From Escherichia coli (GTDB lineage: Bacteria > Pseudomonadota > Gammaproteobacteria > Enterobacterales > Enterobacteriaceae): 64,000 nucleotides of DNA. This document shows positions 1-54,711 of the stretch, piece by piece (within the stretch, counting starts at the first letter, position 1; the number at the start of each line of letters is the position of its first letter). The translations under genes were made by a program, and so were the position numbers. Below the pieces are notes generated by a model, which made no database searches, was not told where the DNA came from, and saw only the letters and a list, made by a program, of their open reading frames with translations. The stretch is taken from NCBI RefSeq assembly GCF_029227855.1, contig NZ_CP074356.1, one strand, 5' to 3'.

Positions 1-672
1 CGAAAGCGTGGCTGGTTTGGCGACAATCTCCTGATGTTCGCTGACCAGATCCGGCGTCTTAACCTGCAACACCGCACGCGCAATAACCGGTTCGCTGTCC
101 GGCACTTTTTCCGTTTTACGCTCGACCTGCGGGCGCGCGTTCACACGGGTTAGTTCAGGTTTCGGGCGAGCTGGCTGTGTTGAGACGCGCGGCTGCGTCG
201 GTGCAATGGCATGTAAATCTTCACTGGCGTAAGTCGCCAGTCTGGCCTGCTGTTCAGGTTTCGCCTGCGGCAACTGACTGATCAGCTCCTGCAACTGCGG
301 CGGCAACGGCGTGAGTTCCTGCTGCTGCGTCGGGCGTTGCGCCGCGTTTTGCACCACCGCTTTCGTCAATTGCTGGATAACCGGCGATGTTGCGACGTTT
401 CGCGGCTGCGGCGTGTCCTGATGCGGCGCGGCAGGTTGCGGAAGTAACAGCGCCATTAGCGCCTGCATCGCCACCGGATCGTTCTCCTGCGGGCGCGTCG
501 CCTGTTGCTGACTGGTTTTTGCGCTATGAACGCGCTCCGCCACCGCCGCGACCGCCATTTTCGGCAGGGTAAACGCGGGCGCGTTTTCACCGCTCACCGG
601 CGGTAAAATATCCGCTTTCAGCGACGCTGTTTCCGCAAGCGTTCCGAGCGTGGCAAGCAATGCCGGATTCAT
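1..672 (-). CDS. lafE: hook-length control protein FliK-like (Flag-2 LafE), N-terminal part only; gene runs off the window start
   Basis: Hand translation of the minus strand from ATG at 672-670 (overlapping the TGA of the upstream fliT-like gene) is open for 224 codons to position 1 (MNPALLATLGTLAE...), Pro/Gln-rich as in FliK N-termini; not in the ORF track because no stop lies inside the window. Assignment by position after fliS/fliT and composition. Confidence 0.5.
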   Translation of the reverse strand, partial: MNPALLATLGTLAETASLKADILPPVSGENAPAFTLPKMAVAAVAERVHSAKTSQQQATRPQENDPVAMQALMALLLPQPAAPHQDTPQPRNVATSPVIQQLTKAVVQNAAQRPTQQQELTPLPPQLQELISQLPQAKPEQQARLATYASEDLHAIAPTQPRVSTQPARPKPELTRVNARPQVERKTEKVPDSEPVIARAVLQVKTPDLVSEHQEIVAKPATLS

Positions 673-980
673 GACTTCTCCGAAAGTAAATTAACAATTG
701 AGTAGGCGAGCACACCTTCCTGATGCCGCTGATGCTGTTCCATACGCGCTTTCAACACTTCTGCGCGCTGCTCGCGCCGTTTAATCAGGGCATTAAACGC
801 GCCGTACAGCTGTGCCTTCACCGCATCCAACTGCGCCGCGTCGGTTTCCGCCGCCGCGTAATCGTGAAACTGGCGCATCAACTGCTGATGCAGTGCCGGA
901 AGGCGTCGCCAGCGTTGCTTGTCGAGGGCTTCATTCATCGCCTCGACCAATGCGAAAAGTTGCCTGCGTTGTTTTTCCAT
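669..980 (-). CDS. lafD: FliT-like flagellar export chaperone (Flag-2 LafD), 103 aa
   Basis: ORF track; small helical protein immediately downstream of fliS in the fliD-fliS-fliT order; start/stop overlap with neighbours. Assignment mainly positional. Confidence 0.45.
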   Translation of the reverse strand: MEKQRRQLFALVEAMNEALDKQRWRRLPALHQQLMRQFHDYAAAETDAAQLDAVKAQLYGAFNALIKRREQRAEVLKARMEQHQRHQEGVLAYSIVNLLSEKS

Positions 981-984
981 CGTC

Positions 985-1377
985 TTAACCCAGCTTGCCC
1001 GAAAGCCCTTCCCAGCCTTCGCGCAGGTTGCTTAAGATCAGCATCACTTCATCGATTTTCTCTGCCGACAATTCGCCGCTGGCTTCATACAATCGGTAAA
1101 CGCAGTGGTCATAGAGTCGCGAAAGGTTCACCACCAGCTCGCCGCCAGTTTCAAACTCCAGCGAACTGGTGAGCGCATTGAGAATGTCGATGCATTTATT
1201 GATGCTCTGGGCTTTCTTCTCGAAACGCCGCCCTTCAATATGGCTTTTGGCGCGTTCCAGCTCGTCCATCAGGCCAGAAAACAGCACCAGCACCAGTTCC
1301 AGAGGCGATGCCGCCGCAGTACGCGCCGCGAGATCGATCTCTTTATATTGCGAATAGCCGTCCTGTACTTGGTACAT
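985..1377 (-). CDS. lafC: flagellin-specific chaperone FliS (Flag-2 LafC), 130 aa
   Basis: ORF track protein MYQVQDGYSQYKEIDLAARTAAASPLELVLVLF... matches the FliS family by eye; located after fliD. Confidence 0.85.
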   Translation of the reverse strand: MYQVQDGYSQYKEIDLAARTAAASPLELVLVLFSGLMDELERAKSHIEGRRFEKKAQSINKCIDILNALTSSLEFETGGELVVNLSRLYDHCVYRLYEASGELSAEKIDEVMLILSNLREGWEGLSGKLG

Positions 1378-1399: not shown

Positions 1400-2716
1400 T
1401 TACGCGAATGCCGCCATGCTGGCTTTCATGGTGTACACCTCGACCAGCGTGTTGGTGTACTCCTCGAGATAACGGTCGTAGTTGGCGTTATAGGTATCAG
1501 TAAGCTGATCGCCTTCGTCCTGAATTTTGCTCATCTGATCGTCAATGTTCTGCTGGCGCAGGGTGATGATGCCGTTGCTGGAGTCCGTGTAGGTGTTAAT
1601 CAGGTCGTCCATCTGCGCTACCATGCTGTTGTCGCCAACGAAAATAGAGGTCAGACCGTCAGGATTTTTCGCCATTTCGTCGTTGAACTGGTCGGAGTCA
1701 ATCTGTAAGTGGCCGTGAGAATCGAGGGTGATGCCATAGTCAACAATCGACACGCCGTTGTAGCTGACATGGGCGATGTCATCGAGCTGGTTCGCCAGTG
1801 AACTGAGTCCGGCGTCGCCTGCAAATACCCCGGCGCTGGTACTGTCATCACCGTGAGTGGTTAGCGAATCAACCGTATCGATCAGGGTGTTATAGGCATC
1901 GACAAAGGTCTGCACTTTCTCCTGGCTGGCGCTGGAATCTTCGCTAATGTTAAAGGTAGTGAGGTCGCTGTCAGAATCGCTGACTTCGGTGAAAGTCATG
2001 GTGACGCCGGGGATCACATCATCAAACGTATTGCTGCTGTTTGTGATCTCAGGCCCCGTGGCGCTGCCAAGATGAATAATCGCGTCCTGAGCGGAGGAAA
2101 CATCCGTGGCAACGGGCGCGCTGGTGCTATCGTTGCTGCCGTCATGCCCCGTTACGCTCACCGAAAATGCGCTCTGCGCCCCGGTGCTATCGGAGGTGAG
2201 CATAATCGTGGTGGTGCCGTCGGTTTTTACCAGTGCCGCCGACACGCCCGGATTGTCATCAGAGTCGTTAATCGCATTCACCAGCTCGCTGGCGTCGATA
2301 AAACCGTCGCCGTCACCGTTCTGATCTGCCGCCGACAGATCAATATCCATGGTGCTGTCGCCCATCGTCAGTTCAAAAGTGCCGGTGGCGGAAAAGGTGT
2401 CGTCGCCCATACTGAACGTGGTTTGCTGCCCCTGCGCCAGTTGCTCAACGAAAAACGAGTAGCTTCCCGCCTGTGCCTGCGAGTTAGCGGAAACGGTCGC
2501 CGAGTCATTATTGCTGGTGGCGGCAAACGTCACCGGGCCGTCAGTATCGCTGTTCAGCGCGTCAACGGCGCTCTGAAAATCGCTCAACGCTGAGCTGAGC
2601 GAGTCCAGGCCGCTGCTTTCAGCGTCCAGCTCGGTCTGCTTCTCCTGCAAATTTGCCGCCTGGGTGGCGACATCCGCATAAGCAATTTCTTGCGCAATGG
2701 TTCTTGGGTTAATCAT
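1400..2716 (-). CDS. lafB: filament cap protein FliD/HAP2 (Flag-2 LafB), 438 aa
   Basis: ORF track; N- and C-terminal axial-protein heptads, Ser/Thr/Asp-rich central domain; GGAG Shine-Dalgarno before ATG at 2716. Confidence 0.8.
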   Translation of the reverse strand: MINPRTIAQEIAYADVATQAANLQEKQTELDAESSGLDSLSSALSDFQSAVDALNSDTDGPVTFAATSNNDSATVSANSQAQAGSYSFFVEQLAQGQQTTFSMGDDTFSATGTFELTMGDSTMDIDLSAADQNGDGDGFIDASELVNAINDSDDNPGVSAALVKTDGTTTIMLTSDSTGAQSAFSVSVTGHDGSNDSTSAPVATDVSSAQDAIIHLGSATGPEITNSSNTFDDVIPGVTMTFTEVSDSDSDLTTFNISEDSSASQEKVQTFVDAYNTLIDTVDSLTTHGDDSTSAGVFAGDAGLSSLANQLDDIAHVSYNGVSIVDYGITLDSHGHLQIDSDQFNDEMAKNPDGLTSIFVGDNSMVAQMDDLINTYTDSSNGIITLRQQNIDDQMSKIQDEGDQLTDTYNANYDRYLEEYTNTLVEVYTMKASMAAFA

Positions 2717-2747
2717 TGATGACTCCGGGTAACGATGTCAGGTTAAT

Positions 2748-2763
2748 GGCAAAAGGCGTGCCA
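2748..2763 (-). promoter_or_regulatory. candidate sigma54 (-24/-12) promoter for the lafB (fliD) operon
   Basis: Minus-strand sequence TGGCACGCCTTTTGCC matches TGGCACG-N4-TTGC; lies about 30 nt upstream of the lafB start codon. Confidence 0.5.
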
Positions 2764-2850
2764 ATATTTTTTATGTGAATAATCAATAGATTGAAAAACA
2801 GGCGGAAATGACGTTTCCGGTCTGGCGGAAAAAAGCCTGCCGCAGAAAGC

Positions 2851-2876
2851 ACAACACCGCCTGCAGGCGGTGTTGT
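2851..2876 (-). terminator. hairpin downstream of flagellin gene (possible intrinsic terminator)
   Basis: Perfect 11-bp inverted repeat acaacaccgcc/ggcggtgttgt with 4-nt loop; on the minus strand a T6 run follows about 14 nt after the stem, so the U-tract is not immediately adjacent. Confidence 0.4.
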
Positions 2877-2920
2877 TCGTGGCCGGGTAAGGCGTTTACG
2901 CCGCATCGGCAAGTCCGCCA

Positions 2921-3835
2921 TTACTGCAGCAGGCTGGAAACCATGCTGGACATGCTGTTGGACTGTTTCAGCATGGTGATGCCGGTCTGCATCAGCACCT
3001 GTTGTTTGGTCATGTTGGACGCTTCCGTCGCGTAGTCGGTATCCATGATGTTACCGATAGCAACTTCGGTGTTGTCCTGCATGCTGGTCAGGTTATTAGC
3101 CGTGTCGTTCAGACGGTTGATAGACGCACCCAGTTTGGACTGGATCTGAGACACGTCATCCATCGCGGTAGAGATGCTGGTGATCATCTGGTTAGCCGAG
3201 CCAGACGCAGTCAGCTCAGTACCGCCAGAAACGCCTGCGGTGCCCGTGGTGTCAGCCTGATCCGCACTAAAGGAGCTGCTGATAGCAGAAAGATCAGTCA
3301 CCAGGGTATTCAGCTGGCTTGAAATATTCACGGTCATGGTGTCGGAAGATTCCGCGCCCACCTGGAAAGTTACCGCGCTCTGGAACAGACCGTCAGTACC
3401 GGTGTTGCTGGTGCCGGAAACACCGAACAGGTTGGTGCCGCCGTAAGTGGTGTTTTGCAGCATGTCAGACATCTGCTGGCCCAGTTCGTCGTATTCGTCC
3501 TGCATCGCCTGCAGGTCGTCGTCGCTGTAGGTGCCGTTCGCTGCCTGAGTTGACAGGTCTTTCATACGACCCAGCACGTCAGACATTTCGTCGAACATGC
3601 TGTCAGCGGTTTGCAGCATCGCGGTGGCATCATTGATGTTGCTCAGCGCCACCCCCATACCGCTGGACTGTGCTGTCAGACGGTTAGCAATTTGTTTGCC
3701 TGCGGCGTCATCGGCAGAAGAGTTAATCCGGTTACCTGTCGCCAGGCGTTCCATAGATGTAGACAGAGAAGAGCTGCTTTTGCTGATTGCATTAACGGCG
3801 GCCATTGAGGCGTTATTGGTGTTAATAGATAACAT
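2921..3835 (-). CDS. lafA: lateral-type flagellin (Flag-2 LafA), 304 aa
   Basis: ORF track; start placed at internal ATG giving MLSINTNNASMAAVNAI... (flagellin N-terminus) with AGGAG Shine-Dalgarno; ends ...SSLLQ; the longer track ORF (from 3901) is an upstream in-frame extension. Confidence 0.9.
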   Translation of the reverse strand: MLSINTNNASMAAVNAISKSSSSLSTSMERLATGNRINSSADDAAGKQIANRLTAQSSGMGVALSNINDATAMLQTADSMFDEMSDVLGRMKDLSTQAANGTYSDDDLQAMQDEYDELGQQMSDMLQNTTYGGTNLFGVSGTSNTGTDGLFQSAVTFQVGAESSDTMTVNISSQLNTLVTDLSAISSSFSADQADTTGTAGVSGGTELTASGSANQMITSISTAMDDVSQIQSKLGASINRLNDTANNLTSMQDNTEVAIGNIMDTDYATEASNMTKQQVLMQTGITMLKQSNSMSSMVSSLLQ

Positions 3836-4271
3836 GATACTGCTCCTTGGGATTAATCGTTTTCGTTTCGATACCCTGTAAAAACGACACCTCGGGAGCA
3901 AACTTAAAACCGCCGTTAAAATTTTTTCGCCACGTATTATCCGATGCCACTTTTAGCTAAAAAAAAACAGAGTTTAAATTCAGATAAAAAGATTATTAGC
4001 AATATCTGCCACATGGCCAGGTATCAAAATATGTCTTTATCAATTGCTTGATATAGTTAAGATTATCATCAATTACCGCGTTTTCTTATCAATGTACTGA
4101 TGCCAAAATTTACATTGCGTTGCAAATAGTACACATTTGGCTATTGTACCTGTCCTGTCATTTCGTTACATTTCCACGCTATATAGTGATTAAGAATAAT
4201 CTTATCACCATAAAATTATTAATTATCACGCAGAAAAATCATCTTCTCAGGGACGTATAAGACTGTGCTTT

Positions 4272-5165
4272 ATGCAAAGCACTATCAGGAAACATTTATC
4301 CCTTGCTAAGGTAAACTCAACTATGAGTATTATTATCAACAACTGGCGGATGGACCCGTCGCTTAATGCCTTAATACATTGCGAAACGGGTGAAACACGT
4401 CGTCTCGGCGAATACCATTTTATTTTGCTGGAAACATTAGCAAAAAATGCCGATGTGGTTTTATCGCGATCTTATTTATGTGCCGAAGTATGGAAGAACC
4501 GCATTGTCGGCGGTAACAGCCTGCCGACGGCGATCCACGCTCTGCGCGTTGCCATTGATGATGACGGCAAGCAACAGAACATTATTAAAACTATCCCGAA
4601 AAAAGGGTACCTGTGCAATAAAGAGTATGTGTCTTTGCCGGAGTCATCGCCTGCGGAAGCGCTGATTATTACCGACCAGATACAGGAAACAGTACCAGAA
4701 GAGATATCTTCTACAACACCGCCTGTGCCTGTTAGAAAAAAACATAAAGGACTGATGGGGTTAGCGTTGACCGCGGCTGTTATATTTATTGGCTCGACCG
4801 TGGGGTATTCACACTTGAAAAGTACACCTGACGCCCCGCAACTGGTAAAAGAGTCAATTAACAGTCCAAGAATAAAAATATTTCATCTTAGTTCTGGAAA
4901 AGAAAATAATTCCGCACCGTTACTGTCACAAACCCTCGCACCAGGAAAAGACAAACTCGATAATTTATTGTCAGCGCATAATATGACAATGACAACCTAT
5001 TATAAATATGTTCGTAACCGACTGGAGAGTGATATTGTTCTGCGCAACCAGTGCAATGGTAGCTGGCAATTAACCTTTAATGTGGATGAGTGGCAGAATA
5101 GCGATATTAATAGCGCGATGTATCAGAATTTAGAGAAGTTGTTAAATACTGTGCAGAAATGCTGA
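4272..5165 (+). CDS. ToxR/CadC-like membrane-anchored transcriptional regulator (winged-helix OmpR-type DNA-binding domain, one TM segment, periplasmic domain); possibly the Flag-2 lafZ
   Basis: ORF track; N-terminal region ...YLCAEVWKNRIVGGNSLPTAIHALRVAIDD... resembles trans_reg_C winged helix; hydrophobic stretch GLMGLALTAAVIFIGSTVGY; AT-rich gene and upstream region. The true start may be the ATG at 4323. Confidence 0.6.
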   Translation: MQSTIRKHLSLAKVNSTMSIIINNWRMDPSLNALIHCETGETRRLGEYHFILLETLAKNADVVLSRSYLCAEVWKNRIVGGNSLPTAIHALRVAIDDDGKQQNIIKTIPKKGYLCNKEYVSLPESSPAEALIITDQIQETVPEEISSTTPPVPVRKKHKGLMGLALTAAVIFIGSTVGYSHLKSTPDAPQLVKESINSPRIKIFHLSSGKENNSAPLLSQTLAPGKDKLDNLLSAHNMTMTTYYKYVRNRLESDIVLRNQCNGSWQLTFNVDEWQNSDINSAMYQNLEKLLNTVQKC

Positions 5166-15030: not shown

Positions 15031-15066
15031 TTCCTGCGTCACTCCTGCTTCAATCCGCATACGCTA

Positions 15067-15082
15067 GGCAATTACCGTGCCA
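15067..15082 (-). promoter_or_regulatory. candidate sigma54 (-24/-12) promoter for the flgB operon
   Basis: Minus-strand sequence TGGCACGGTAATTGCC matches TGGCACG-N4-TTGC; in the short divergent flgB/flgA intergenic region. Confidence 0.55.
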
Positions 15083-15111: not shown

Positions 15112-15849
15112 ATGAGTTTTCAATTTTGCAGGCGGAAGTTTTATTTCCTCCTGGCGCTGGCCTTACCGGGCTACGCCGCCGTCTACCCCGTGCAACACAG
15201 CGCGCGGGAACAAGTCAACGCCCAGGTGCTGAATGCCGCGAGCCAGCAGATTGAATCGCTGGCGCAGCAGCGGCAGTGGCATGACTATCGCTACACCTTT
15301 AAGGTCTACATTCCCTCGCAGATTGCGACCGCTGCGCCCTGTGCTGCGGCACCCGGCGTCACGCTGACGTCGCCTGTGGACATCGCCCTCAACCGCATGA
15401 ACTTCACCGTCAGTTGCCCGCAAAGCTGGCAGATGAACGTGGCGGTGCGCCCGGATGTGCTGGTGCCGGTGGTGATGACAAAGTCACTGGTTGCCCGCGA
15501 TACGCCGCTCACGGCGAATGATGTGGAGCTGAAGCCCTACAACGTCAGCGCCCAGCGTCGCGATGTGTTGATGGAGCTTGATGACGCAATTGGTTTAAGC
15601 AGTAAGCACGCGCTGCAGCCGGGCAGGCCAATCACCAAAGAAGAGCTGGTCTCTCCGGTACTGATCGAGCGCGATCAGCCGGTGATGATTGTTTACCAGA
15701 ACGCGGGGATCACCGCCTCGATGCCCGGCGTGGCGCTGAAAAATGGCCGCAAAGGCGAGATGGTGAAAGTACGTAACGCAAGCAGCCAGCGGGTCATCAG
15801 CGCGATGGTGGCGGAAAGCGGCGTGGTGACAACGGTAAGCGCGGAGTAA
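15112..15849 (+). CDS. lfgA: P-ring assembly chaperone FlgA (Flag-2 LfgA)
   Basis: ORF track; start set at the ATG at 15112 (MSFQFCRRKFYFLLALALPGYAA, signal-like); divergent from flgB. Confidence 0.7.
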   Translation: MSFQFCRRKFYFLLALALPGYAAVYPVQHSAREQVNAQVLNAASQQIESLAQQRQWHDYRYTFKVYIPSQIATAAPCAAAPGVTLTSPVDIALNRMNFTVSCPQSWQMNVAVRPDVLVPVVMTKSLVARDTPLTANDVELKPYNVSAQRRDVLMELDDAIGLSSKHALQPGRPITKEELVSPVLIERDQPVMIVYQNAGITASMPGVALKNGRKGEMVKVRNASSQRVISAMVAESGVVTTVSAE

Positions 15850-16646: not shown

Positions 16647-16773
16647 CGCGAATACCTTCCCCCATCGCGGAAATGGATTTTCCGCCTGATTCACAATCCT
16701 TTGTTTTTGATTATAAAAATTCCCGGCACGCTTATTGCACATTCCGCAAAGTAATAAAGACTGGAAGCCACCT

Positions 16774-17703
16774 ATGAGTTTTATTGAATGTTACGAACCG
16801 GAATACGTGCGCAATTTTATGACGCAATATCCCGATTCGCCTTTGTACATCCGCAAGGTGTGGAAAAACGAGATTCGCCAGAGCCTGATGCTGACAGAGC
16901 CAGAAAGCTGCGAAGCGGTGCTCAACGATGCCAGGGCCTTTGATTTACAGCTCACCTACCGCCCGGCGGAAGATAATGCCGCAGAACTCTCCGCGCGCGA
17001 TGCGATAGTAAACCAGGTCATTTTGAGCACCCTTACGCTCCCCGATTTACCCCCGGAGCTTTCACTGTACGCCGTCGGGATTTTGCTCTCCCGCGCCAGC
17101 AAAATGCCGGGCAGAGACGGAGATATTCTTGCCCGCTTGACGACGCTGCCACAGGCGCTGGCCGCTCATGCACAAAAAGGCACGCTACAGGCACAGTTCG
17201 CCCAGTTGCCGCCTGTACCACAGCTGGCGCGCCAACTGGTGACGCTGCTCGGCAGTTGTGCGTTTGACTGGTCGATTCTGCCGGAAAGCCCGCGCAAAAC
17301 TTCCCTGCCGTTGCAGATGCCTTTGCTGGCGCTACATGACGCCAACAGCGAAGCCCTGTTGCAACAGCAGCTTCAGGCACAGTGGCAAACCACCTGGCAA
17401 CAGCATTTTGCCACCGCGCCCTGGATGATGTGTAACTGGCTGATTTACCGCGTTTACCATGAGGTGATTGGACAGGCAGACGGAGCAGATTATTGCCCGC
17501 TGGTGTGCGATTTTTATTTTATCCGCACGTTAATCAGTTTATGGACGCTGGATGGTTCTCCGCTGCGGAAGGAGGATATTTTCGCCCTTTTTGCGGTGTT
17601 TGAACGCTGGCGAGAGAGTGAAAATGCGCTGTTTATTCGCCAGCAAATTCAGTCGTTATGTGCCGCCGACCCGCTGCTTTCAGCGTTTTCGCTGCTGACG
17701 TGA
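16774..17703 (+). CDS. hypothetical protein, about 309 aa, in the flgA-flgM-flgN operon context
   Basis: ORF track (16735-17703); start placed at the ATG at 16774 (MSFIECYEPEY...) with a GGAAG Shine-Dalgarno; I recognise no family. Confidence 0.5.
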   Translation: MSFIECYEPEYVRNFMTQYPDSPLYIRKVWKNEIRQSLMLTEPESCEAVLNDARAFDLQLTYRPAEDNAAELSARDAIVNQVILSTLTLPDLPPELSLYAVGILLSRASKMPGRDGDILARLTTLPQALAAHAQKGTLQAQFAQLPPVPQLARQLVTLLGSCAFDWSILPESPRKTSLPLQMPLLALHDANSEALLQQQLQAQWQTTWQQHFATAPWMMCNWLIYRVYHEVIGQADGADYCPLVCDFYFIRTLISLWTLDGSPLRKEDIFALFAVFERWRESENALFIRQQIQSLCAADPLLSAFSLLT

Positions 17704-17717
17704 AGCCGCTCTCGATC

Positions 17718-17753
17718 GGTCCCCTCGCCCCTTCGGGGAGAGGGTGAGGGGCA
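17718..17753. repeat. GC-rich imperfect palindromic intergenic repeat, copy A
   Basis: ggtcccctcgccccttcggggagagggtgaggggca; its reverse complement aligns closely with the copy at 27433-27474. Confidence 0.6.
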
Positions 17754-17809
17754 AAGCACGCACAGCCCTCCTTACCCATCAAATTAACCCCTTAACTCAC
17801 CTAAACACC

Positions 17810-20281
17810 ATGCCAACACCAACCCTCATCAAAACACTCGCCACTCACCGCGAAAAACCGTTCGTCAGCGTCGTCACGCCCACATGGAACCGTAGCGCAT
17901 TCCTGCCGTACCTGCTCTATATGTACCGCTATCAGGATTACCCGGCAGACCGCCGCGAACTGGTCATCCTCGACGACTCGCCGCAAAGCCATCAACACAT
18001 CATCGACCGCCTGACCAATGGCACACCGGAAGCCTTTAACATCCGCTATATTCATCACCCGGAAAAACTGCCACTGGGCAAAAAACGCAACATGCTCAAC
18101 GAACTGGCGAGCGGCGAATACATCCTCTGCATGGACGATGACGACTACTACCCGGCAGATAAAATCTCTTACGCCATCGCCATGATGCAAAAACACCGGG
18201 CGCTCATCTCCGGTTCCGACCAGATCCCCATCTGGTACAGCCACATCAATCGCATCTTCCAAAGCCGCAGCTTTGGCTCACATAACATCCTCAACGGCAC
18301 CTTTTGCTATCACCGTAACTACCTGAAAAAGCACCGTTACGACGATGATTGTAATTTAGGCGAAGAGAAAAGTTTCACCAACAATTTCAGCGTTAACCCG
18401 CTACAACTGCCCGGCGAGCGCACGATTCTGTGTATCTCGCACAGTCACAACACCTTTGATAAAGATTTTATTCTCGGGGCTAGCACGCCAGTAAACGCGG
18501 CGCTTACGGATATCGTCCGCGATCCGCTGCTGCGCAATGCTTATCTGAGTCTGCATAACGCCACTCATCACCAGGCGATCGATCAGGTCGTACTGATCAA
18601 TCTGGATAAACGCCCGGATCGCTTACAGCAGATCCGTGAAGAACTCACATTGCTGTATATTCCGCCTGAGAAGATCACCCGCCTTGCCGCCAGTGAAAAT
18701 GAAAACGGTCAACGGGGTCGCCGCCAGTCACACTTGCAGGCGCTGCGCCTGGCGCAACAGCACGGCTGGCAAAACTACCTGCTGCTGGAAGATGACGCAG
18801 TTATTCTCAAGCAGGAGAAACATATTCAGGTACTGAACACGCTGCTCGCGAGCCTGGCGAAAATTCCCTGGCAGGTGATGATCCTTGGCGGCGAAATTTC
18901 GCAGGGAACGATGCTAAAAAGTTTGCCGGGGCTGGTGCACGCGCGGGACTGCCGCAAAGTGTGCGCTTATCTGGTGAACAGTCGCTACTACCCGCAACTG
19001 GCGCAGCAGATGAGCCACAATGAACACTCGCTGGAAGACGGCTGGCAGCCGCTGCTACGCGCCGACAAATGGCTGGCCTGTTACCCGAGCCTTAGTTATC
19101 AGCGACCGGGCTTTAGTGATATCGAGAAAAAAGTGACCGACAACATTGCTCACTATTTCAATAAGTTACCCGTTATCACAAAGCCATCCGCATTACCCAT
19201 CGCCGACACCATCGGCTTTTTTATGGAAACCTCCTTCCACTACGCGCTCTACCGCCCAATCATCACTGCTCTACAGGTGCAGGGGCAGAGCTGCACGCTG
19301 GTGATCAATGACCGCGTGTTTAAACCGTTTCTTGATGAGATGCTGGAAACACTGAAAAACATCGACGATCCGCAGCTTAAAGGAATGCGCTTATCTGAAA
19401 TGCAGGCACACGGTCAGCGGGTGAAATGCCTGGTCAGCCCCTACCACACGCCCGCGCTCAATGGCCTGGCAGCGGTGAACGTTCGCGCCATGTACGGCTT
19501 AGCCAAAGAGACGTGGAACCACGCCGACTGGAACCGTTTTTATCAACGCATTTTGTGTTACAGCCACTACAGCCAGCGGGCGCTGGCGCATTTCGGCAAT
19601 GCAAAAGCAGTCGGCAACCCGCGCTTCGACGCCTGGCATAACGGCACGTTTGCCCGCACTCTGCCGGAAAATATTCAACCCGATTCCCGTAAACCTACGG
19701 TGCTCTATGCCCCCACGTTTGGCGCATTAAGCTCCCTGCCCCACTGGGCAGAAAAATTAGGCCGCTTAAGTGGCAATGTGAATCTGATTTGCAAACTGCA
19801 CCACGGCACCTGCTCGCGCCCGGAAGAAGCGGCATCGCTGGCCCTGGCGCGCAGGCATTTAAAACAGCGCACCGACTCCGCCCGCCACACGCTGGCGCTG
19901 CTGGCAAAGGCCGATTACGTGCTGACCGATAACAGCGGCTTTATTTTCGATGCTATTCACGTTGATAAGCGGGTGATCCTGCTCGACTTTCCGGGCATGG
20001 CAGCGTTGCTCGACGGTGAGAAAAGTTACTCCACGCCGGAGAGCGCCGATCAGCAAATCCGCGAAATATTGCCGGTGGCTCATGATATGGCAGAGTTGCG
20101 TTACTTGTTGTCAGAGGCGTTTGACTGGGGGGCGGTGCAGGCGCGGCTTACGAAGATTCGCCATCACTATTGCGATGCGTTTATGGATGGCAAAGCGGGA
20201 GAACGGGCGGCGATGGTGATTGTGGAGGCGCTGGCGGACAAGGAATCGTCAGGGATATGTCGATATAATTCGATTTTTTAA
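17810..20281 (+). CDS. multidomain glycosyltransferase, about 823 aa: N-terminal GT2-like, central GT25-like, C-terminal CDP-glycerol glycerophosphotransferase (TagB/TagF-like)
   Basis: ORF track (17744-20281); start set at ATG 17810 (MPTPTLIK...). N-terminus VSVVTPTWNRSAFLP...LDDSP...CMDDDDYY (DXD motif); middle VVLINLDKRPDRLQQI...LLLEDDAVI; C-terminus TVLYAPTFG...KLHHGT...VLTDNSGFIFDAIHVDKRVI. Domain calls by eye, unverified. Confidence 0.7.
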   Translation: MPTPTLIKTLATHREKPFVSVVTPTWNRSAFLPYLLYMYRYQDYPADRRELVILDDSPQSHQHIIDRLTNGTPEAFNIRYIHHPEKLPLGKKRNMLNELASGEYILCMDDDDYYPADKISYAIAMMQKHRALISGSDQIPIWYSHINRIFQSRSFGSHNILNGTFCYHRNYLKKHRYDDDCNLGEEKSFTNNFSVNPLQLPGERTILCISHSHNTFDKDFILGASTPVNAALTDIVRDPLLRNAYLSLHNATHHQAIDQVVLINLDKRPDRLQQIREELTLLYIPPEKITRLAASENENGQRGRRQSHLQALRLAQQHGWQNYLLLEDDAVILKQEKHIQVLNTLLASLAKIPWQVMILGGEISQGTMLKSLPGLVHARDCRKVCAYLVNSRYYPQLAQQMSHNEHSLEDGWQPLLRADKWLACYPSLSYQRPGFSDIEKKVTDNIAHYFNKLPVITKPSALPIADTIGFFMETSFHYALYRPIITALQVQGQSCTLVINDRVFKPFLDEMLETLKNIDDPQLKGMRLSEMQAHGQRVKCLVSPYHTPALNGLAAVNVRAMYGLAKETWNHADWNRFYQRILCYSHYSQRALAHFGNAKAVGNPRFDAWHNGTFARTLPENIQPDSRKPTVLYAPTFGALSSLPHWAEKLGRLSGNVNLICKLHHGTCSRPEEAASLALARRHLKQRTDSARHTLALLAKADYVLTDNSGFIFDAIHVDKRVILLDFPGMAALLDGEKSYSTPESADQQIREILPVAHDMAELRYLLSEAFDWGAVQARLTKIRHHYCDAFMDGKAGERAAMVIVEALADKESSGICRYNSIF

Positions 20282-26293: not shown

Positions 26294-27280
26294 TCAGGAG
26301 AAAACTTCGATACCTTGCTTGCGCATGGAGGCCAGTCGATAGCGCAGTGCGCGCGGGGTAATGCCTAACAGGTTGGCGATTTTGCTGCGGTTGCCCTGAT
26401 ATTTACGCATCAGGTCGGCGATATATTGATATTGCGCGCTTCGTCCGTGCTGGCCTAAATCGCAGGTTTCAGCAATGTGGACGGCGGGCTGAACAGGCCA
26501 TTGCAGTTCGCTGCGGTCGGCAACGTCCGTTTCCGGCAGGCCTAAGGCGTCCGGGTAAATTACGCCGTCGCGGTTTAAAATCATTCCCCGCTGAATGGCG
26601 TTCTCCAGCTGGCGCACGTTGCCGGGCCAGCGGTAATTGAGCAGCGCCCGGCGGGTAGATTCTGAAAGGGTGATATTTTTCACCAGCACCGTGGAGTATT
26701 TTTTAATAAATGACTCTGCCAGCGGAATAATATCGTTCAGACGTTCACGCAGCGGCGGCATGGTAATAGGGATTACCGCAAGACGATAATAGAGATCTTC
26801 ACGAAAACGCCCTTCGGCGACTTCCTGCTCAAGGTTTTTATTGGTACAGGCAATCAGGCGAAAATTGAGTTTAATTTGTCGGTTGCTGCCTAATCGCTCA
26901 ACCTGCTGTTCCTGCAATACGCGTAATATTTTGACCTGTAGCGCCAGCGGCATATCGCCAATTTCATCGAGCAATAAGGAGCCGTTATTCGCCAGTTCCA
27001 TTTTTCCTGGCACGCTGGCAATTGCGCCGGTAAATGCACCTTTGTCGTAGCCAAATAAGGTAGATTCCAGCATATTTTCCGGGATCGCCGCGCAGTTCAC
27101 GCCGACATAGGGTGCGCTTTCATTTTCACCAAAGGCTACGGTGTGAATATATTTTGCCACGCACTCTTTGCCCGCGCCGGTTTCGCCCTGAATGAGCACC
27201 GGCACGTTAAAGGCGGCGACACGCTTTGCCAGAGTAAAAGCGTTAATGCTGGAAGCGGCAGTTGCAATAAGTTCAGACAT
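26294..27280 (-). CDS. lafK: sigma54-dependent transcriptional activator without receiver domain (LafK-like)
   Basis: ORF track, 328 aa; AAA+ sigma54-interaction domain (GETGAGKE Walker A, GAFTGA-type loop) and C-terminal HTH; divergent from the fliM operon. Confidence 0.85.
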   Translation of the reverse strand: MSELIATAASSINAFTLAKRVAAFNVPVLIQGETGAGKECVAKYIHTVAFGENESAPYVGVNCAAIPENMLESTLFGYDKGAFTGAIASVPGKMELANNGSLLLDEIGDMPLALQVKILRVLQEQQVERLGSNRQIKLNFRLIACTNKNLEQEVAEGRFREDLYYRLAVIPITMPPLRERLNDIIPLAESFIKKYSTVLVKNITLSESTRRALLNYRWPGNVRQLENAIQRGMILNRDGVIYPDALGLPETDVADRSELQWPVQPAVHIAETCDLGQHGRSAQYQYIADLMRKYQGNRSKIANLLGITPRALRYRLASMRKQGIEVFS

Positions 27281-27432
27281 AGGGTGAACGATATAAGTAG
27301 CGACAGAAAACAGGATGTTCTGAAGCGTATCACCGGCGGGATTAACAAGTTCGAATTAAACGATAATAAAAATATTATTTGATGGTAAACAATGAGTTAG
27401 ATATTAATACTGTTAATTGCGACATCTGTGAT

Positions 27433-27474
27433 GCCCCCTCACCCTAACCCTCTCCCCGGATGGGGCTAGGGGAC
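27433..27474. repeat. GC-rich imperfect palindromic intergenic repeat, copy B (inverted relative to copy A)
   Basis: gccccctcaccctaaccctctccccggatggggctaggggac aligns with the reverse complement of 17718-17753, with small insertions. Confidence 0.6.
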
Positions 27475-27652
27475 AGACCGCAGACTGATTGGCGAAAATC
27501 ACTCCCATTAAGCAATTAATCGATTAATTATTTTTTCATCCTATTAATAATTTGCCCCTTTCACTCCCCCTCTATTTAATACCTCACCTTGTGTCACTGC
27601 CGGATTTGCGTGCACAAAATCGCCCATACCATTACAGCAGAGAAAGTAAGCC

Positions 27653-33918: not shown

Positions 33919-34314
33919 ATGACGTCAGGGATTGATAAGATGATGAAAACGCGTTTATTAATATCTCAAGCATCGAACATTATCACCATTAAAGGTCAAC
34001 CAGCCGCAGTGACATTTGAAGCCGATATCAACGCATTTCGCGGCAAATTTCTCAATGTAAATGGTTATTGCGACTTTGTAGCGACAAGCATTGAGGCGTT
34101 ATACCGGGAAGGTGAAAGTGCGCTGGATGAGTGGATGGCGGATTGTGAAGAGGACGGCATTGCCCCTTTTCGTGAAGAAGAGCAAAAACGCCTGACGCTT
34201 CGTGTTCCTCATCACATCGATTCACGACTGACCATTGTCGCCAGACAACATTCCATTTCAAAAAATCAGCTCATTGTTGATGTATTAGAACGTGAGTTTT
34301 CATCCCAGATGTAA
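33919..34314 (+). CDS. HicB-like/ribbon-helix-helix small protein (orphan antitoxin-like), 131 aa
   Basis: ORF track; C-terminal ...RLTLRVPHHIDSRLTIVARQHSISKNQLIVDVLERE resembles RHH (CopG/Arc) DNA-binding motifs fused to a HicB-like fold; no HicA-like partner seen nearby. Confidence 0.45.
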   Translation: MTSGIDKMMKTRLLISQASNIITIKGQPAAVTFEADINAFRGKFLNVNGYCDFVATSIEALYREGESALDEWMADCEEDGIAPFREEEQKRLTLRVPHHIDSRLTIVARQHSISKNQLIVDVLEREFSSQM

Positions 34315-43483: not shown

Positions 43484-43861
43484 TCACTCCTGACCAAAAT
43501 CTTTCCACACTAATGCATGAGACTTTGATTTATCACCCAAAAATTTACTTACATCTTTCCAAAGTAAAGAATTGCTATCGGTCGCAGTGACTATTGCCTC
43601 TATAAGCCCTGTAGCTACAACTGTGGCCAATTCATCATCAATCGAGACCATACCATCTTCGACATGTTTAAATATTTTTTCTCTTTCAATATCACCCATT
43701 TCATAAAAATTTTTTACAATCGTTTTTCCAATCTGAGAGAACAACATAACCACCGGTGGAGTTTCTGGATGCCAGTATTCATTAGCTAATGAGACTGTCT
43801 CAGACAAAACAGTGGAAAACGATGCCATTTTTTCTATATAATTAGCAATATATTGGTTCAT
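43484..43861 (-). CDS. putative immunity protein for the Rhs C-terminal toxin, 125 aa
   Basis: ORF track; small AT-rich ORF whose ATG overlaps the rhs stop codon; classic effector-immunity arrangement; family unknown. Confidence 0.5.
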   Translation of the reverse strand: MNQYIANYIEKMASFSTVLSETVSLANEYWHPETPPVVMLFSQIGKTIVKNFYEMGDIEREKIFKHVEDGMVSIDDELATVVATGLIEAIVTATDSNSLLWKDVSKFLGDKSKSHALVWKDFGQE

Positions 43862-46800
43862 TACTTGCCTCCCAAAGCATTCTGTAAATCCTGAAGAACG
43901 TTTTCTGCTGCTGCTCGATCCCCTGGAGATGCTGTTGGATTCTTATCCAACCAATCCTGTAAAGCCCTTGTATAATCCTGTGCTTTCAATACATGTCCTC
44001 TACCACCAACTTTTTCACCTGTGGCCAATTCATAACGAACAGCATCTGCTGTGCTTCCACTTCCTACTTTTGCATTTGGCCGATAAAGATCGTCTATAAT
44101 ATTTTTCAAATTTGAATCTGTAACGTCAGGTTTTCCCATCTTCTGTCGCAATTCATCTTTATACCGTTCATGCTGCATACGATCTCTTGCGCTATTCTCA
44201 TCTTCTGGTCCCCATCCTCCCGGGCTTCCCGTACTGCCACCACCCAGGCAGTTCTTCTCTTCCTCCGTCAAATCCTTCCCGACATTTGGATTCTCTTTTG
44301 ATGAATCATCATTTCCAAACACGCTGGAAAAAGCACCATAGGGATCTCGCCAGAATTCCATTTGACTTTGTGCATTTAATAATTCGGCTTCACCCTGCAT
44401 CTCCATACTTTTCTCAATCGCGTCCCCAACAGCCTCGCGATTGTTGTATATTATTATACCACCACCAATAACCACCGTACCGACTGCCGCACCGACTAAC
44501 ATCCCCGGAGGGCCTCCTACCGAACCGATCTCTGTACCTACTTCAGAACCAGTTCCCATGGCAGTTAATGCTCCTGCGCCCAACGCCGCACTTAATCCCA
44601 GCGGATCCAGCCGTTGCACCGGGTTCAGTGGATACGCATACAGGTTCCATCCCCCCTTCAGCCCAATCGGATCCTGGGTGATATACCTCCCCTGTAGCGG
44701 GTCATAGTACCGGTGACGGTTGTAGTACAGCCCCGACTCCTCATCATACTGCTGCCCCGGCAGACGGAGTGACTGTTGAAGGTGCTGCGTGCTTTCCTCT
44801 CCCAGCAGGTTTCCCCACTCGTCATACTCCCCGCGCCACGCCGTTTCCCCTTCCGGGCTGATAAGCGCCTGCGGCAGCCCACGGTGGTCACAGTGGTAAA
44901 GATGAAGTTTCCTCTCCGGGATGTATTCCGCCTCCAGTTGCGCCGCCATCTGTTCCGCCGTCAACCCACACTGTGCAAGCCACTGCTGGCTTTCTTCACT
45001 CACGCTGCCCTGCCGCAGTTCCCGCTCCAGCCTCCCCAGCATCACCGCCAGCTCCGCCGGTAGCGTCACACCCGTGTCCTCCTGCAACACCTCCGCCAGG
45101 CTACGGTGCCGCGCCTTCGCCTGTTCGCCATTCTCTGTTTCGATTCTCAGGAGCGGCGTGAAGCTCCCCGGCTGGTATACCGTCTGGATACGCGTGGTGT
45201 CGGTCTGTACCGTCGTCAGCCTGTCGCCGTCCCACCCGTACCAGGTCACCTCCGGTTTACGCGACAGCGACATCCACCCCGTCAGGTCACGCTCCCGCCG
45301 CCACACCCGTTTTCCCGTCCGGCGGCCCAGCGGGTCATAGAGGTAGCGGCTCTCCACCTGTGGCTCGCCGTGCTGTATCCGCGTGTAGAACACCAGGCGG
45401 TGCTGGCTGTCGTAATGGTAGTGGTGCGTCCGCTCGTCGTGCATCCGTATCACCCCTTCCGGGATACGGTCCGTCTTCTCCGCCAGCCTGCCGTATTCAT
45501 CGTAGCGGTAGACATAGTGCGCATCTTCCGTGATGCGGTTATCCGGCCACGCCGTGAGGGTGCTGTCCGGGTGCAGTTCCGGGTCCGGCAGCCGGTTTCC
45601 TGCCGGGTCCGTCGCATACGGGATATCAATGTCCAGGTTCGCTGCCGTGGTGTGGACGCCCGTCAGCCTTCCCGTGTCGCTGTAACGGTACTCCCGGCTC
45701 TCCTGCGGGCCGCTGATGCGAATTAGCTGTCCGTTGTCGTTCCAGTCGTAGTCACGGTCAAGCTGCGGAAGGTTCAGGTGCCTGCTCCGGAGCTGGCCGC
45801 TGGTATTCCAGGCGGTGGCAAGCTCATATGCCTCCCCGCCGAAGCTGCGGGCCGTCTCACGGTGCAGCCGGTCCCGCGTGTACTCGACCAGTGGCGTACC
45901 ACCCAGCTTCATTCCCGCAAGATAACCGCTGCCATACGTCAGCCACTCCACCGGCGGCAGACCGTCCAGCTCCTGACGGGTCGCCAGCCCCTGTTCGCTG
46001 TACGCGTGCTTCGTCTCATGCTCCCACAGCATCTCCCCCGTCTCCGGGTTCTCCACCGTCTGCCGTTCGCCCGTCAGGCGGCCTTTATCGTCGTGGCCGT
46101 AGTGGACCGCCACACGGTGGCCTTCGCTGATATGGCTGATTTCTGTCAGCCAGCCGTGCTCATCATACTGCCACTGCTCCGCCGGGTCGCCGTTCACCGT
46201 CCGGTGCGTGATGCGGTCCGACGCATCGTAATGCCAGAGGGTGATAAGTCCCTCGTCTTCACTGTGGACAAGCTGCCCTGTGGCGCTGTACCGGTAACGC
46301 TGCGTCCTGCCGTCAAAGCCGCGCTGCTCCGTCAGCCTGTCCACCGGGTCATACCGGAACGTGGACTGGCTGCCGTTCTCGTTGGTCAGCACGGTGATGC
46401 GCCCGGCAGCGTCATACCCCATGCTGCGCGTCAGACCGCCTTCCGTCACACTCACCGGACGCCCGCGTTTATCATATTCGATGGTGCTGCGTTTACCGTC
46501 CGGTGATATCGTTGCTGTCAGGTCGCCTGCGGCGCTGTACTCATAACGGGTTTCACGCCCCTGCGCATCCTTCTGACTGACCAGTTGGCCTCGCGGGTTA
46601 TAACTGCTGTAAGTGCTGATGCCTTCCTCCCGGTGAACGGCGATTTGTTGACCGTACCGGTCATACTCATACCGCGTCATGTACCCCGAGCAGTCCGTGA
46701 AGGCCCGAAGCTGACCGTACCGGTTTCGCGTTATTCTCCGCGTCACCCCGATTCCGTCTTCCACCGCGCCGGGCAGGCTACTGCGGGGGGAGTCATAAAA

Positions 46801-48360: not shown

Positions 48361-48435
48361 GAATCAATTCCTTCTGCTTTTAATATGGTTTATCTGGTCA
48401 CTGCACCAGTTCCGTTTTAATTTTTTGCACCTGAC

Positions 48436-50577: not shown

Positions 50578-50746
50578 AGCAACCTCCGGGTTTAAGGAAA
50601 AACAGACAGTTCGCTGTTAAAGCGGCTGTAACAGTACAGTGTTACGCTTGCGTTCAGGCACGCTACCGCCGAAGTTTCCGGCATCCGCCATCTCCCGTGA
50701 ACGTAACCCCTTACTGACAACCTTTCTTTTTACGGCGTAATACAAA

Positions 50747-50778
50747 AACAGCATCCGGCCTAATAGCCGGATGCTGTT
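50747..50778 (-). terminator. Rho-independent terminator downstream of hcp
   Basis: 13-bp perfect inverted repeat aacagcatccggc / gccggatgctgtt with loop ctaata; on the minus strand it is followed by a T-rich run. Confidence 0.7.
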
Positions 50779-50786
50779 GGCTTAAC

Positions 50787-52502: not shown

Positions 52503-52537
52503 CCACCACTATTTCATTAAACAGGGGTTATCCAGGC

Positions 52538-52762: not shown

Positions 52763-52812
52763 TGGCGAAAAGCCGGTTTCAGAAACACAGCTAAAACAGA
52801 AGGATTTTCAGT

Positions 52813-54288: not shown

Positions 54289-54294
54289 CACGCC

Positions 54295-54708: not shown

Positions 54709-54711
54709 CAA

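What the first reader, a model, noticed from the sequence alone, without database searches (positions are those of the whole stretch)
2748..2763. Consensus sigma54 promoter upstream of the fliD-fliS-fliT-fliK operon
The minus-strand sequence TGGCACGCCTTTTGCC fits TGGCACG-N4-TTGC at the right distance from the lafB start, with a hairpin just upstream that could end flagellin transcription. This fits a hierarchy in which the locus-encoded sigma54 activator (26294-27280) drives the late operon.
Basis: seen in the sequence. Interest (0 to 1): 0.4.

Follow-up and report, generated by a model that had tools for sequence, protein, structure and literature searches.

The report
Sigma-54 promoter of E. 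coli lafB operon
This is a real and strongly conserved sigma-54 promoter in front of the lafB operon of the E. coli second (Flag-2, lateral-type) flagellar system; it has already been noted in print, so it is ordinary, although a conserved activator-binding-like repeat just upstream of it appears not to have been described.

Summary
The 16-mer TGGCACGCCTTTTGCC is at 2763..2748 (minus strand), 31 nt before the lafB (fliD-like) ATG. The window is the E. coli Flag-2 lateral-flagella locus. Only three 11/12 matches to TGGCACG-N4-TTGCW occur in the 64 kb (0.9 expected). All three lie directly upstream of Flag-2 transcription units: lafB, lfgB and a FliB-like/glycosyltransferase pair. The box is invariant in divergent E. 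coli alleles and present at the same place in all 23 other enterobacterial Flag-2 loci examined, and in Pantoea/Erwinia, Pseudomonas fragi and (weaker) Vibrio lateral loci. The locus encodes LafK, a 328-aa AAA+/HTH activator with GAFTGA. The operon continues to lafS (sigma-28) and the motor genes, making it the middle tier that enables sigma-28-dependent lafA, not a 'late' operon. The promoter was already reported in silico (PMC4578781, 2015), and the homologous V. parahaemolyticus site is published. I did not find in the literature a GGAA-N7-TTCC dyad 53-57 or 65-68 bp upstream of nearly every such box (33 of 38 boxes; 0.09 expected), with an IHF-like core between. It is probably the LafK enhancer. 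No experiment was available.

The parts
2748..2763 (-). Sigma-54 -24/-12 promoter element TGGCACGCCTTTTGCC (GG 2762-2761, GC 2750-2749) of the lafB operon
   Evidence: sequence; rarity; invariant in 9 E. coli alleles except one spacer base; TGGCA and TTGC invariant in 24/24 distinct sequences from 24 loci
2736..2739 (-). Predicted transcription start (about 12 nt downstream of the GC); inferred, not mapped
   Evidence: Inference from the established geometry of sigma-54 promoters applied
2723..2726 (-). Shine-Dalgarno GGAG, 6 nt before the lafB ATG (2716)
   Evidence: GGAG conserved in the aligned loci
2781..2793 (+). IHF-core-like sequence AATCAATAGATTG (WATCAANNNNTTR) between dyad and -24 box
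   Evidence: 21/35 distinct spacers have at most 1 mismatch, against 5.1 in shuffles (max 12 of 300), at fixed positions. Assignment to IHF is inference
2804..2818 (-). Proximal dyad GGAAACGTCATTTCC (GGAA-N7-TTCC), centre 2811, about -74 from the predicted start; candidate LafK enhancer (UAS)
   Evidence: 3 exact GGAA-N7-TTCCGCCTG sites in window, all at sigma-54 boxes; half-sites fixed, centre variable
2827..2841 (-). Distal degenerate copy GGCAGGCTTTTTTCC, 23 bp upstream of the proximal dyad; its TTCC half is conserved in most species
   Evidence: E. coli O111 strain 7-54 carries two extra 23-bp copies of this unit (L008)
2851..2876 (-). G+C-rich hairpin ACAACACCGCC-TGCA-GGCGGTGTTGT, likely lafA terminator (weak U-tract)
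   Evidence: fold; conserved in E. coli alleles with loop variation
2879..2910 (-). REP-type repetitive extragenic palindrome directly after the lafA stop (2923..2921)
   Evidence: alleles show GCCGGATGCGGCGTAAACGCCTTATCCGGCCTAC; weak Rfam naRNA4 (REP-derived) hit 2881-2924, E=0.014; identification as REP rests on my knowledge of the consensus
1400..2716 (-). lafB (FliD-like filament cap), first gene of the operon
   Evidence: FliD_N, FliD_C; RefSeq annotation
985..1377 (-). lafC (FliS chaperone)
669..980 (-). lafD (FliT-position protein, no Pfam hit)
1..672 (-). 5' part of lafE (FliK-like); the window ends inside it. The operon continues with lafF (fliL), lafS (sigma-28), lafT (motA), lafU
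   Evidence: annotation of the 100%-identical record; gaps between fliD and motA are at most 22 nt
26294..27280 (-). lafK: 328-aa sigma-54 activator, AAA+ plus HTH_8, no sensory domain, GAFTGA present
   Evidence: LafK classed as a type Ic EBP lacking a signal domain in PMC3162934
15067..15148 (-). Sister promoter of lfgB: box TGGCACGGTAATTGCC (15082..15067) plus dyad GGAAATAAAACTTCC (15148..15134, inside the start of divergent lfgA)
   Evidence: conserved in 5 of 6 other genera with exact dyad at -66..-68, and with a 1-mismatch dyad in the sixth
16669..16739 (+). Third sigma-54 promoter: dyad GGAAATGGATTTTCC (16669..16683) plus box CGGCACGCTTATTGCA (16724..16739), upstream of a FliB-like gene (16774..17703) and a GT2 glycosyltransferase (17744..20281)
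   Evidence: orthologous FliB_C genes in Leminorella and C. freundii also have box plus dyad
3881..3907 (-). lafA promoter of sigma-28 type, TTAAGTTT-N11-GTCGTTTT (the tier below lafB/lafS)
   Evidence: (conserved across species)

Best explanation
The site at 2763..2748 is the sigma-54 (RpoN)-dependent promoter of the lafBCDEFSTU operon of the E. coli Flag-2 lateral-type flagellar locus. Proposed mechanism: RNA polymerase carrying sigma-54 binds the GG/GC elements and forms a closed complex that cannot open by itself. LafK is the locus-encoded AAA+ activator with no sensory domain, so it is probably controlled by its own abundance. It binds the GGAA-N7-TTCC dyad centred about 74 bp upstream of the start, with a weaker copy 23 bp further up. 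An IHF-type bend or the A-tract between dyad and box brings LafK to the polymerase. ATP hydrolysis and the GAFTGA loop then remodel sigma-54, and transcription starts near 2737. The transcript encodes the filament cap, chaperones, hook-length control, FliL, the sigma-28 factor LafS and the stator. This promoter is therefore the link from the LafK/sigma-54 tier to the sigma-28 tier that transcribes flagellin lafA. Shown here: the sequence elements, their rarity, their positional conservation across about 30 species, the domain content of LafK, and the operon content. Inferred: binding of LafK to the dyad, IHF involvement, the start site, and dependence on rpoN and lafK.
For: Exact motif and geometry. 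There are 2 exact and 3 near-exact matches in 64 kb, all directly upstream of Flag-2 units. The box is invariant in 9 E. coli alleles whose flanks differ by up to about 20%. A box scoring 10-12 of 12 lies 44-59 nt before lafB in 23/23 other enterobacterial loci with LafB identity 54-99%. It is also present in Pantoea/Erwinia (12/12) and Pseudomonas fragi (11/12), and is weaker (9/12) in Vibrio alfacsensis. LafK has Sigma54_activat, AAA_lid, HTH_8 and GAFTGA. For the dyad, 33 of 38 boxes scoring at least 11/12 in 457 kb carry it at -70..-52 against 0.09 expected, in two offset classes one helical turn apart. The operon contains the sigma-28 gene, and lafA has a conserved sigma-28-type promoter and no sigma-54 box. 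Literature: sigma-54 sites upstream of lfgB and lafB were noted in E. coli PCN033 (PMC4578781). In V. parahaemolyticus, lafBCD is down in an rpoN mutant and a predicted RpoN site lies at lafB (PMC9817140). Class II genes, including the sigma-28 gene, are LafK-dependent (PMC4481668). Aeromonas PflgB drops from 970 to 20 MU in a lafK mutant (PMC5013049).
Against: There are no transcription-start, reporter, ChIP or binding data for E. coli Flag-2. In V. parahaemolyticus, purified RpoN alone did not shift the lafB promoter fragment (PMC9817140), although sigma-54 alone is a poor test. The loci compared are orthologous, so the counts are not independent events. The dyad-LafK link is by association only. 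The lafA terminator has a weak U-tract, so some read-through from the lafA promoter into lafB is possible. Whether Flag-2 is expressed at all in this strain is unknown.
Confidence: 0.88

Rival explanations
1. lafB is mainly transcribed by another route, either read-through from the sigma-28-dependent lafA promoter across a leaky terminator or its own sigma-28 or sigma-70 promoter. On this view the sigma-54 box is minor or vestigial.
For: The hairpin after lafA (2876..2851) is followed by a poor U-tract, GCUUUCUG. In the primary enteric flagellar system, fliDST has both class 2 and class 3 promoters (established knowledge). A sigma-70-like match exists at 2741..2712.
Against: No sigma-28 (LafS)-type motif occurs in 2717..2920 at up to 3 mismatches, while the lafA promoter is found perfectly. 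The sigma-70-like match overlaps the start codon itself. A vestigial box would not stay invariant across species whose flanks are unalignable. The sigma-28 gene lies inside this operon, so sole dependence on sigma-28 would be circular.
Confidence: 0.07
2. The GGAA-N7-TTCC element next to the promoter is an RNA hairpin (a second terminator for lafA, as the scanner suggested), not a protein-binding enhancer.
For: The terminator scan flags CGGAAACGTCATTTCCG followed by CCTGTTTTTC at 2819..2803. The RNA fold forms this small stem. It lies downstream of lafA and, in the third promoter, downstream of lfgN.
Against: Only 4 bp per arm are conserved across species, which is too weak for a terminator. 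The same element precedes lfgB, where no co-directional gene ends and where it lies inside the divergent lfgA coding start. Its distance to the sigma-54 box is fixed in two classes about 11 bp apart, which makes sense for a DNA-bound activator and not for a terminator. It is present in P. fragi upstream of lafB, where the preceding gene is flgN rather than flagellin.
Confidence: 0.08
3. The match is a chance occurrence without function.
For: One-mismatch matches to TGGCAC-N5-TTGC are no more frequent than chance in the window: 10 observed, 8.45 expected.
Against: The high-scoring matches are few, all correctly placed, and conserved over 54-99% protein divergence and beyond.
Confidence: 0.02

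Closest known systems
Sigma-54 sites reported upstream of lfgB and lafB in the Flag-2 locus of E. coli PCN033 (PMC4578781, 2015)
   Same: This is the same locus, the same two genes and the same motif definition (TGGCAC-N5-TTGC), so the finding is the same promoter seen in another strain.
   Different: That report is one sentence of in-silico observation. It gives no conservation analysis, no third promoter, no upstream dyad and no placement of the operon in the cascade.
Vibrio parahaemolyticus lateral flagellar hierarchy (LafK/sigma-54 class II, including fliDSTKLA-motAB; sigma-28 class III lafA)
   Same: The gene order lafB-C-D-E-F-S-T-U is the same, the activator is likewise a LafK lacking a sensory domain, a sigma-54-like site is predicted upstream of lafB, and lafBCD is reduced in an rpoN mutant.
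   Different: The host differs (Enterobacteriaceae, with peritrichous Flag-1 as the primary system). The E. coli box is much closer to consensus than the V. parahaemolyticus or V. alfacsensis sites. No expression data exist for E. coli.
PspF-dependent pspA promoter of E. coli (sigma-54 promoter with UAS, IHF site and a sensor-less activator)
   Same: It has the same architecture: an activator consisting only of AAA+ and HTH domains, upstream dyad sites, an IHF-type site between enhancer and -24/-12 box, and control presumably by activator availability rather than a sensory domain (established knowledge; LafK and PspF are grouped as type Ic in PMC3162934).
   Different: The recognition sequence is different, and the enhancer is closer to the promoter (centre about -74 or -85). 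No PspA-like negative regulator has been identified.

Membership tests
Sigma-54 (RpoN) -24/-12 promoter | GG and GC doublets exactly 10 bp apart within TGGCAC-N5-TTGCW | tested here: met
   TGGCACGCCTTTTGCC scores 11 of 12 consensus positions; the only deviation is C instead of A/T after TTGC
Sigma-54 (RpoN) -24/-12 promoter | Located upstream of, and oriented towards, a gene with a plausible leader | tested here: met
   The box ends 31 nt before the lafB ATG, GGAG lies 6 nt before the ATG, and the predicted leader is about 21 nt. The box lies 44-59 nt (box start to ATG) before lafB in 23 other loci
Sigma-54 (RpoN) -24/-12 promoter | A cognate bacterial enhancer-binding protein with AAA+ domain and GAFTGA loop is available | tested here: met
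   LafK 26294..27280: Sigma54_activat E=6.9e-64, HTH_8, GAFTGA, Walker A and B
Sigma-54 (RpoN) -24/-12 promoter | Upstream activator-binding sequence (enhancer) | tested here: inconclusive
   A conserved GGAA-N7-TTCC dyad lies at phase-locked distances, but binding by LafK is not shown
Sigma-54 (RpoN) -24/-12 promoter | Transcription start about 12 nt downstream of GC, and dependence on rpoN and on ATP hydrolysis by the activator | not testable with these tools
   No transcript or mutant data for E. coli Flag-2 were found in the searchable literature
Lateral-flagellar class II (LafK-dependent) operon, V. parahaemolyticus type | Operon lafB-C-D-E-F-S-T-U containing the sigma-28 gene | tested here: met
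   RefSeq annotation of the identical record; the same order occurs in Vibrio, Pantoea/Erwinia and P. fragi loci
Lateral-flagellar class II (LafK-dependent) operon, V. parahaemolyticus type | The downstream tier (flagellin lafA) has a sigma-28-type promoter, not a sigma-54 one | tested here: met
   TTAAGTTT-N11-GTCGTTTT at 3907..3881 is conserved across species, and there is no sigma-54 box upstream of lafA
Lateral-flagellar class II (LafK-dependent) operon, V. parahaemolyticus type | Expression lost in lafK and rpoN mutants | not testable with these tools
   Shown only for relatives: V. parahaemolyticus and Aeromonas PflgB
Intrinsic (Rho-independent) terminator after lafA | G+C-rich stem-loop immediately followed by a U-run | tested here: inconclusive
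   An 11-bp G+C-rich stem is present at 2876..2851, but the tail GCUUUCUG has only 3 consecutive U, and the consensus scanner did not call it
IHF-binding site | Core WATCAANNNNTTR with an A/T-rich flank, placed between enhancer and promoter | tested here: inconclusive
   The core matches perfectly at 2781..2793 and is enriched at a fixed position across loci. The core is short, and IHF binding is not testable here

The most novel reading that the evidence does not exclude
GGAA-N7-TTCC is the hitherto undescribed DNA recognition site (enhancer) of the lateral-flagellar master activator LafK. It is conserved from Enterobacteriaceae to Erwiniaceae, Pseudomonas and Vibrio, and sits on one face of the helix 53-57 or 65-68 bp upstream of the sigma-54 box, with an IHF-type bend between. 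It defines a compact LafK regulon of three promoters in E. coli Flag-2: lafB, lfgB and the flagellin-modification genes. The basal-body/export operons and lafK itself are outside it, since no sigma-54 box lies in 27281..27652. Copy number of the 23-bp dyad unit varies between E. coli strains and could tune output.
Probability: 0.45. Interest if true: 0.4.

Novelty: already known. Interest (0 to 1): 0.2.

Why it matters
As given, the finding adds little. A sigma-54 site upstream of lafB in E. coli Flag-2 is already in print, and it follows the V. parahaemolyticus paradigm. Its value is confirmatory. The promoter is under strong purifying selection in a locus often assumed to be cryptic in E. 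coli, although about a quarter of complete genomes carry it. It is also the step that couples the LafK/sigma-54 tier to sigma-28 and flagellin. The by-product could be more useful. A precise candidate LafK operator and a three-promoter regulon make the regulation of Flag-2 directly testable with a handful of reporter and footprinting experiments. They also give a sequence signature for finding LafK-controlled genes in other genomes.

Tried and rejected
(1) A 26-sequence LafB alignment at about 30% identity was too diverse for the locus scan. A 7-sequence alignment worked but reached only Enterobacteriaceae. Distant systems were reached instead through representative proteins and exact-protein look-ups.

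(2) The primary papers were not held: Ren et al. 2005, Stewart and McCarter 2003, and Kim and McCarter 2004. I therefore cannot say whether Ren et al. already listed this promoter or any upstream element.

(3) The generic E. coli sigma-28 consensus scan at 3 mismatches was uninformative, with 89 hits. A lafA-derived motif was used instead.

(4) The Y. pseudotuberculosis RpoN ChIP-seq paper does not mention lateral/Flag-2 genes in its main text.

(5) Rfam found nothing at gathering threshold.

(6) The plus-strand 'terminator' call at 2747..2763 is just the partial palindrome inherent in the sigma-54 box, and no plus-strand gene ends there. It was rejected.

(7) The sigma-70-like hit at 2741..2712 overlaps the start codon and was rejected.

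(8) Pfam gave no family for the 309-aa product of 16774..17703. Its FliB-like identity rests on precomputed FliB_C hits to the syntenic genes in other loci.

(9) I did not run a metagenome pattern scan for dyad plus box. It would mostly re-find the loci the pattern was derived from.

Full report
**What is there.** On the minus strand the window reads ...CACATAAAAAATAT TGGCACGCCTTTTGCC ATTAACCTGACATCGTTACCCGGAGTCATCA ATG. The 16-mer occupies 2763..2748 exactly as reported. The GG is at 2762-2761 and the GC at 2750-2749. The ATG at 2716 opens a 438-aa protein with FliD_N and FliD_C domains. It is followed by a FliS gene (985..1377), a small gene in the FliT position (669..980) and the beginning of a FliK-like gene that runs off the window. 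Upstream is a flagellin gene (2921..3835; Flagellin_N/C).

**Origin of the window.** The window is E. coli. The 2.5-kb lafA-lafB segment is 100% identical to strain JNEC-KY178 and is present in 1282 of 5426 complete genomes. RefSeq labels the genes lafA, fliD, fliS, hypothetical, FliK, FliL-family, FliA/WhiG sigma factor, motA and lafU, with gaps of at most 22 nt from fliD to motA. This is the Flag-2 lateral-type flagellar locus described for strain 042 and surveyed across Enterobacterales (PMC6993521).

**Is the match more than chance?** One-mismatch matches to TGGCAC-N5-TTGC are at chance level: 10 observed, 8.45 expected. Exact matches are not: 2 observed, 0.39 expected. In a graded scan that requires GG and GC and scores 12 consensus positions, only three sites reach 11/12, against 0.91 expected:

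- 2763..2748, before lafB;
- 15082..15067, before lfgB (FlgB-like);
- 16724..16739, before a gene starting at 16774.

All three are intergenic, point at the adjacent gene and lie inside the flagellar locus. None is found in the 30 kb of backbone and type VI secretion genes on the right of the window.

**Conservation within E. coli.** I aligned nine alleles of the lafA-lafB spacer spanning 100% to about 80% identity. The box is unchanged except for one spacer base in one strain, while the surrounding sequence carries substitutions, a REP-element insertion and a 46-bp duplication.

**Conservation across species.** A protein-anchored scan of one genome per species returned 23 enterobacterial Flag-2 loci with LafB 54-99% identical. 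They came from Citrobacter, Pseudocitrobacter, Phytobacter, Leminorella, Pseudescherichia and unnamed Enterobacteriaceae. Every one has a box scoring 10-12 of 12, beginning 44-59 nt before the lafB start. Four distant non-lateral FliD loci have none. Anchored on the box, TGGCA and TTGC are invariant in 24 of 24 distinct sequences, whereas most flanking columns carry little information.

Three far more distant lateral systems, with LafB about 31-33% identical and the same lafB-C-D-E-F-sigma28-motA-motB order, were then examined:

| Locus | Box |
|---|---|
| Pantoea/Erwinia | TGGCACGCAGTTTGCT (12/12) |
| Pseudomonas fragi | TGGCACCGGTTTTGCT (11/12) |
| Vibrio alfacsensis | TGGCGTACATTTTGCT (9/12) |

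**The activator.** The ORF at 26294..27280 has Sigma54_activat (E=6.9e-64), AAA_lid_14 and HTH_8 domains and no N-terminal sensory domain. Its sequence contains Walker A (GETGAGKE), Walker B (LLLDEIGD) and the GAFTGA loop. LafK has been classed with PspF and HrpR/S as an activator lacking a signal-recognition domain (PMC3162934).

Each of the three promoters carries the same sequence upstream: GGAA-N7-TTCCGCCTG. It has exactly three perfect matches in the window, and they are these three. The window holds only four GGAA-N7-TTCC sites in all.

- **Position:** the dyad starts 55 bp before the box at lafB and at the 16774 gene, and 66 bp before it at lfgB.
- **Variation within E. coli:** the half-sites are fixed while the four central bases vary. 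One O111 strain has two additional 23-bp copies of the unit.
- **Across species at lafB:** all 23 enterobacterial lafB promoters have an exact GGAA-N7-TTCC 53-57 bp before the box, with unrelated N7 and flanks.
- **Across species at lfgB and the FliB-like gene:** five of six additional genera have an exact dyad 66-68 bp before the lfgB box, and the sixth has a one-mismatch version at -68. Two FliB-like gene promoters also have it.
- **Distant systems:** Pantoea/Erwinia has an exact dyad at -57. P. fragi has an exact dyad at -100 and a one-mismatch dyad at -58. Vibrio has an exact dyad at -66.
- **Pooled statistics:** over 457 kb, 33 of 38 boxes scoring at least 11/12 have an exact dyad at -70..-52 against 0.09 expected. 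Offsets fall into two classes, -53..-57 and -65..-68, about one helical turn apart. Of all 59 dyads, 35 are box-associated. These counts are inflated by shared ancestry, but the pattern of fixed half-sites, free spacer and phase-locked distance is what a dimeric DNA-binding protein would impose.
- **IHF-like core:** between dyad and box, the lafB promoter has AATCAATAGATTG (2781..2793), a perfect IHF core. Cores with at most 1 mismatch occur in 21 of 35 distinct spacers against 5.1 in shuffles, at fixed positions.

I found no description of a LafK binding site in the searchable literature. The key primary papers were not available to me.

**Hairpins.** The region after lafA folds well (z = -3.3). 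Its dominant feature is an 11-bp G+C-rich stem at 2876..2851, followed by GCUUUCUG. The stem is conserved in E. coli alleles with loop changes. It is a plausible but not textbook terminator, so some read-through cannot be excluded. Between the lafA stop and this stem lies a REP-type element.

The small stem at 2819..2803 that the scanner calls terminator-like is the dyad itself. Only 4 bp per arm are conserved. The same element also precedes lfgB, where it lies inside the start of the divergent lfgA gene and no co-directional gene ends. A DNA-level role is therefore much more likely.

**Place in the hierarchy.** lafA has a different, conserved promoter, TTAAGTTT-N11-GTCGTTTT at 3907..3881. It resembles the sigma-28 consensus, is conserved across species, and has no sigma-54 box. 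No such motif exists between lafA and lafB. The sigma-28 gene sits inside the lafB operon.

The simplest scheme is LafK plus sigma-54 activating P-lafB (and P-lfgB and the modification genes), which yields LafS, which then activates P-lafA. This is the published V. parahaemolyticus scheme, in which class II genes, including the sigma-28 gene, depend on LafK (PMC4481668). The lafB operon is therefore the middle tier, not a late operon.

The divergent lafK / lfiM control region (27281..27652) has no sigma-54 box scoring at least 9/12. That fits a sigma-70-type top tier, as proposed for Aeromonas PfliM (PMC5013049).

[quoted passage not shown] For V. parahaemolyticus, a predicted RpoN site upstream of lafB is tabulated and lafBCD falls in an rpoN mutant, though RpoN alone did not shift that fragment (PMC9817140). 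The finding is thus already known as a prediction and follows a known paradigm. No experimental test in E. coli was found.

**Verdict.** Novelty is 'already known' and interest is low. The conserved dyad/IHF architecture and the third promoter are the only parts that may be new, and they need LafK binding and reporter experiments.

Noticed in passing
window 2804-2818, 15134-15148, 16669-16683 (and L010-L032, L038-L045): A GGAA-N7-TTCC dyad lies 53-57 or 65-68 bp upstream of nearly every lateral-flagellar sigma-54 box, from E. coli to Pantoea, Pseudomonas fragi and Vibrio. It is a candidate LafK enhancer and I did not find it in the searchable literature.
   Followed up: yes
window 16669-16739 (+), genes 16774-17703 and 17744-20281: A third sigma-54 box plus dyad sits in front of a FliB-like (flagellin lysine-methylase-type) gene and a GT2 glycosyltransferase in the variable region. 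This would put flagellin modification under LafK. The published note mentions only lfgB and lafB.
   Followed up: partly
L008 (E. coli O111:H8 strain 7-54 11A), aligned to window 2822-2845: This strain has a 46-bp insertion made of two extra copies of the 23-bp unit carrying the dyad, giving four tandem sites instead of two. This may be natural variation in enhancer copy number.
   Followed up: no
window 2879-2910; alleles L006/L007: A REP-type palindromic element lies directly after the lafA stop. Some E. coli alleles carry an additional REP-like insertion of about 45 bp there, and in some records lafA is not annotated next to fliD.
   Followed up: partly
window 27281-27652: The divergent lafK / lfiM control region is A+T-rich, has no sigma-54 box, and contains a G+C-rich imperfect palindrome (about 27430-27480, CCCCTCACCCTAACCCTCTCCCCGG...GGGGAC) that looks like an E. 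coli intergenic repeat. How lafK itself is switched on is open.
   Followed up: no
window 4272-5165 (+): A ToxR/CadC-like regulator (winged-helix Trans_reg_C domain) is divergent from lafA, in the LafZ position. The intervening 430 bp is very A+T-rich with several sigma-70-like hits. Its role in the cascade is unknown.
   Followed up: no
window 15030 vs 15060: The longest lfgB ORF starts at 15060, but RefSeq homologues are 111-116 aa and an AGGAG precedes the ATG at 15030. The true start is probably 15030, giving a leader of about 25 nt from the predicted sigma-54 start.
   Followed up: partly
L001 14377-14524 (outside the window, same genome): A 146-nt gap lies between motA and the annotated lafU start, and lafU is shorter (259 aa) than MotB-like homologues elsewhere (297-330 aa). 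The start may be mis-annotated or the 5' end damaged.
   Followed up: no
window 33919-34314 and 43861-56562: A HicB-family antitoxin gene lies next to lfhA. Further right is a type VI secretion cluster (Rhs 43861-48360, VgrG 48436-50577, TssC 52813-54288, TssF 54712-56562). No high-scoring sigma-54 box is associated with either.
   Followed up: no
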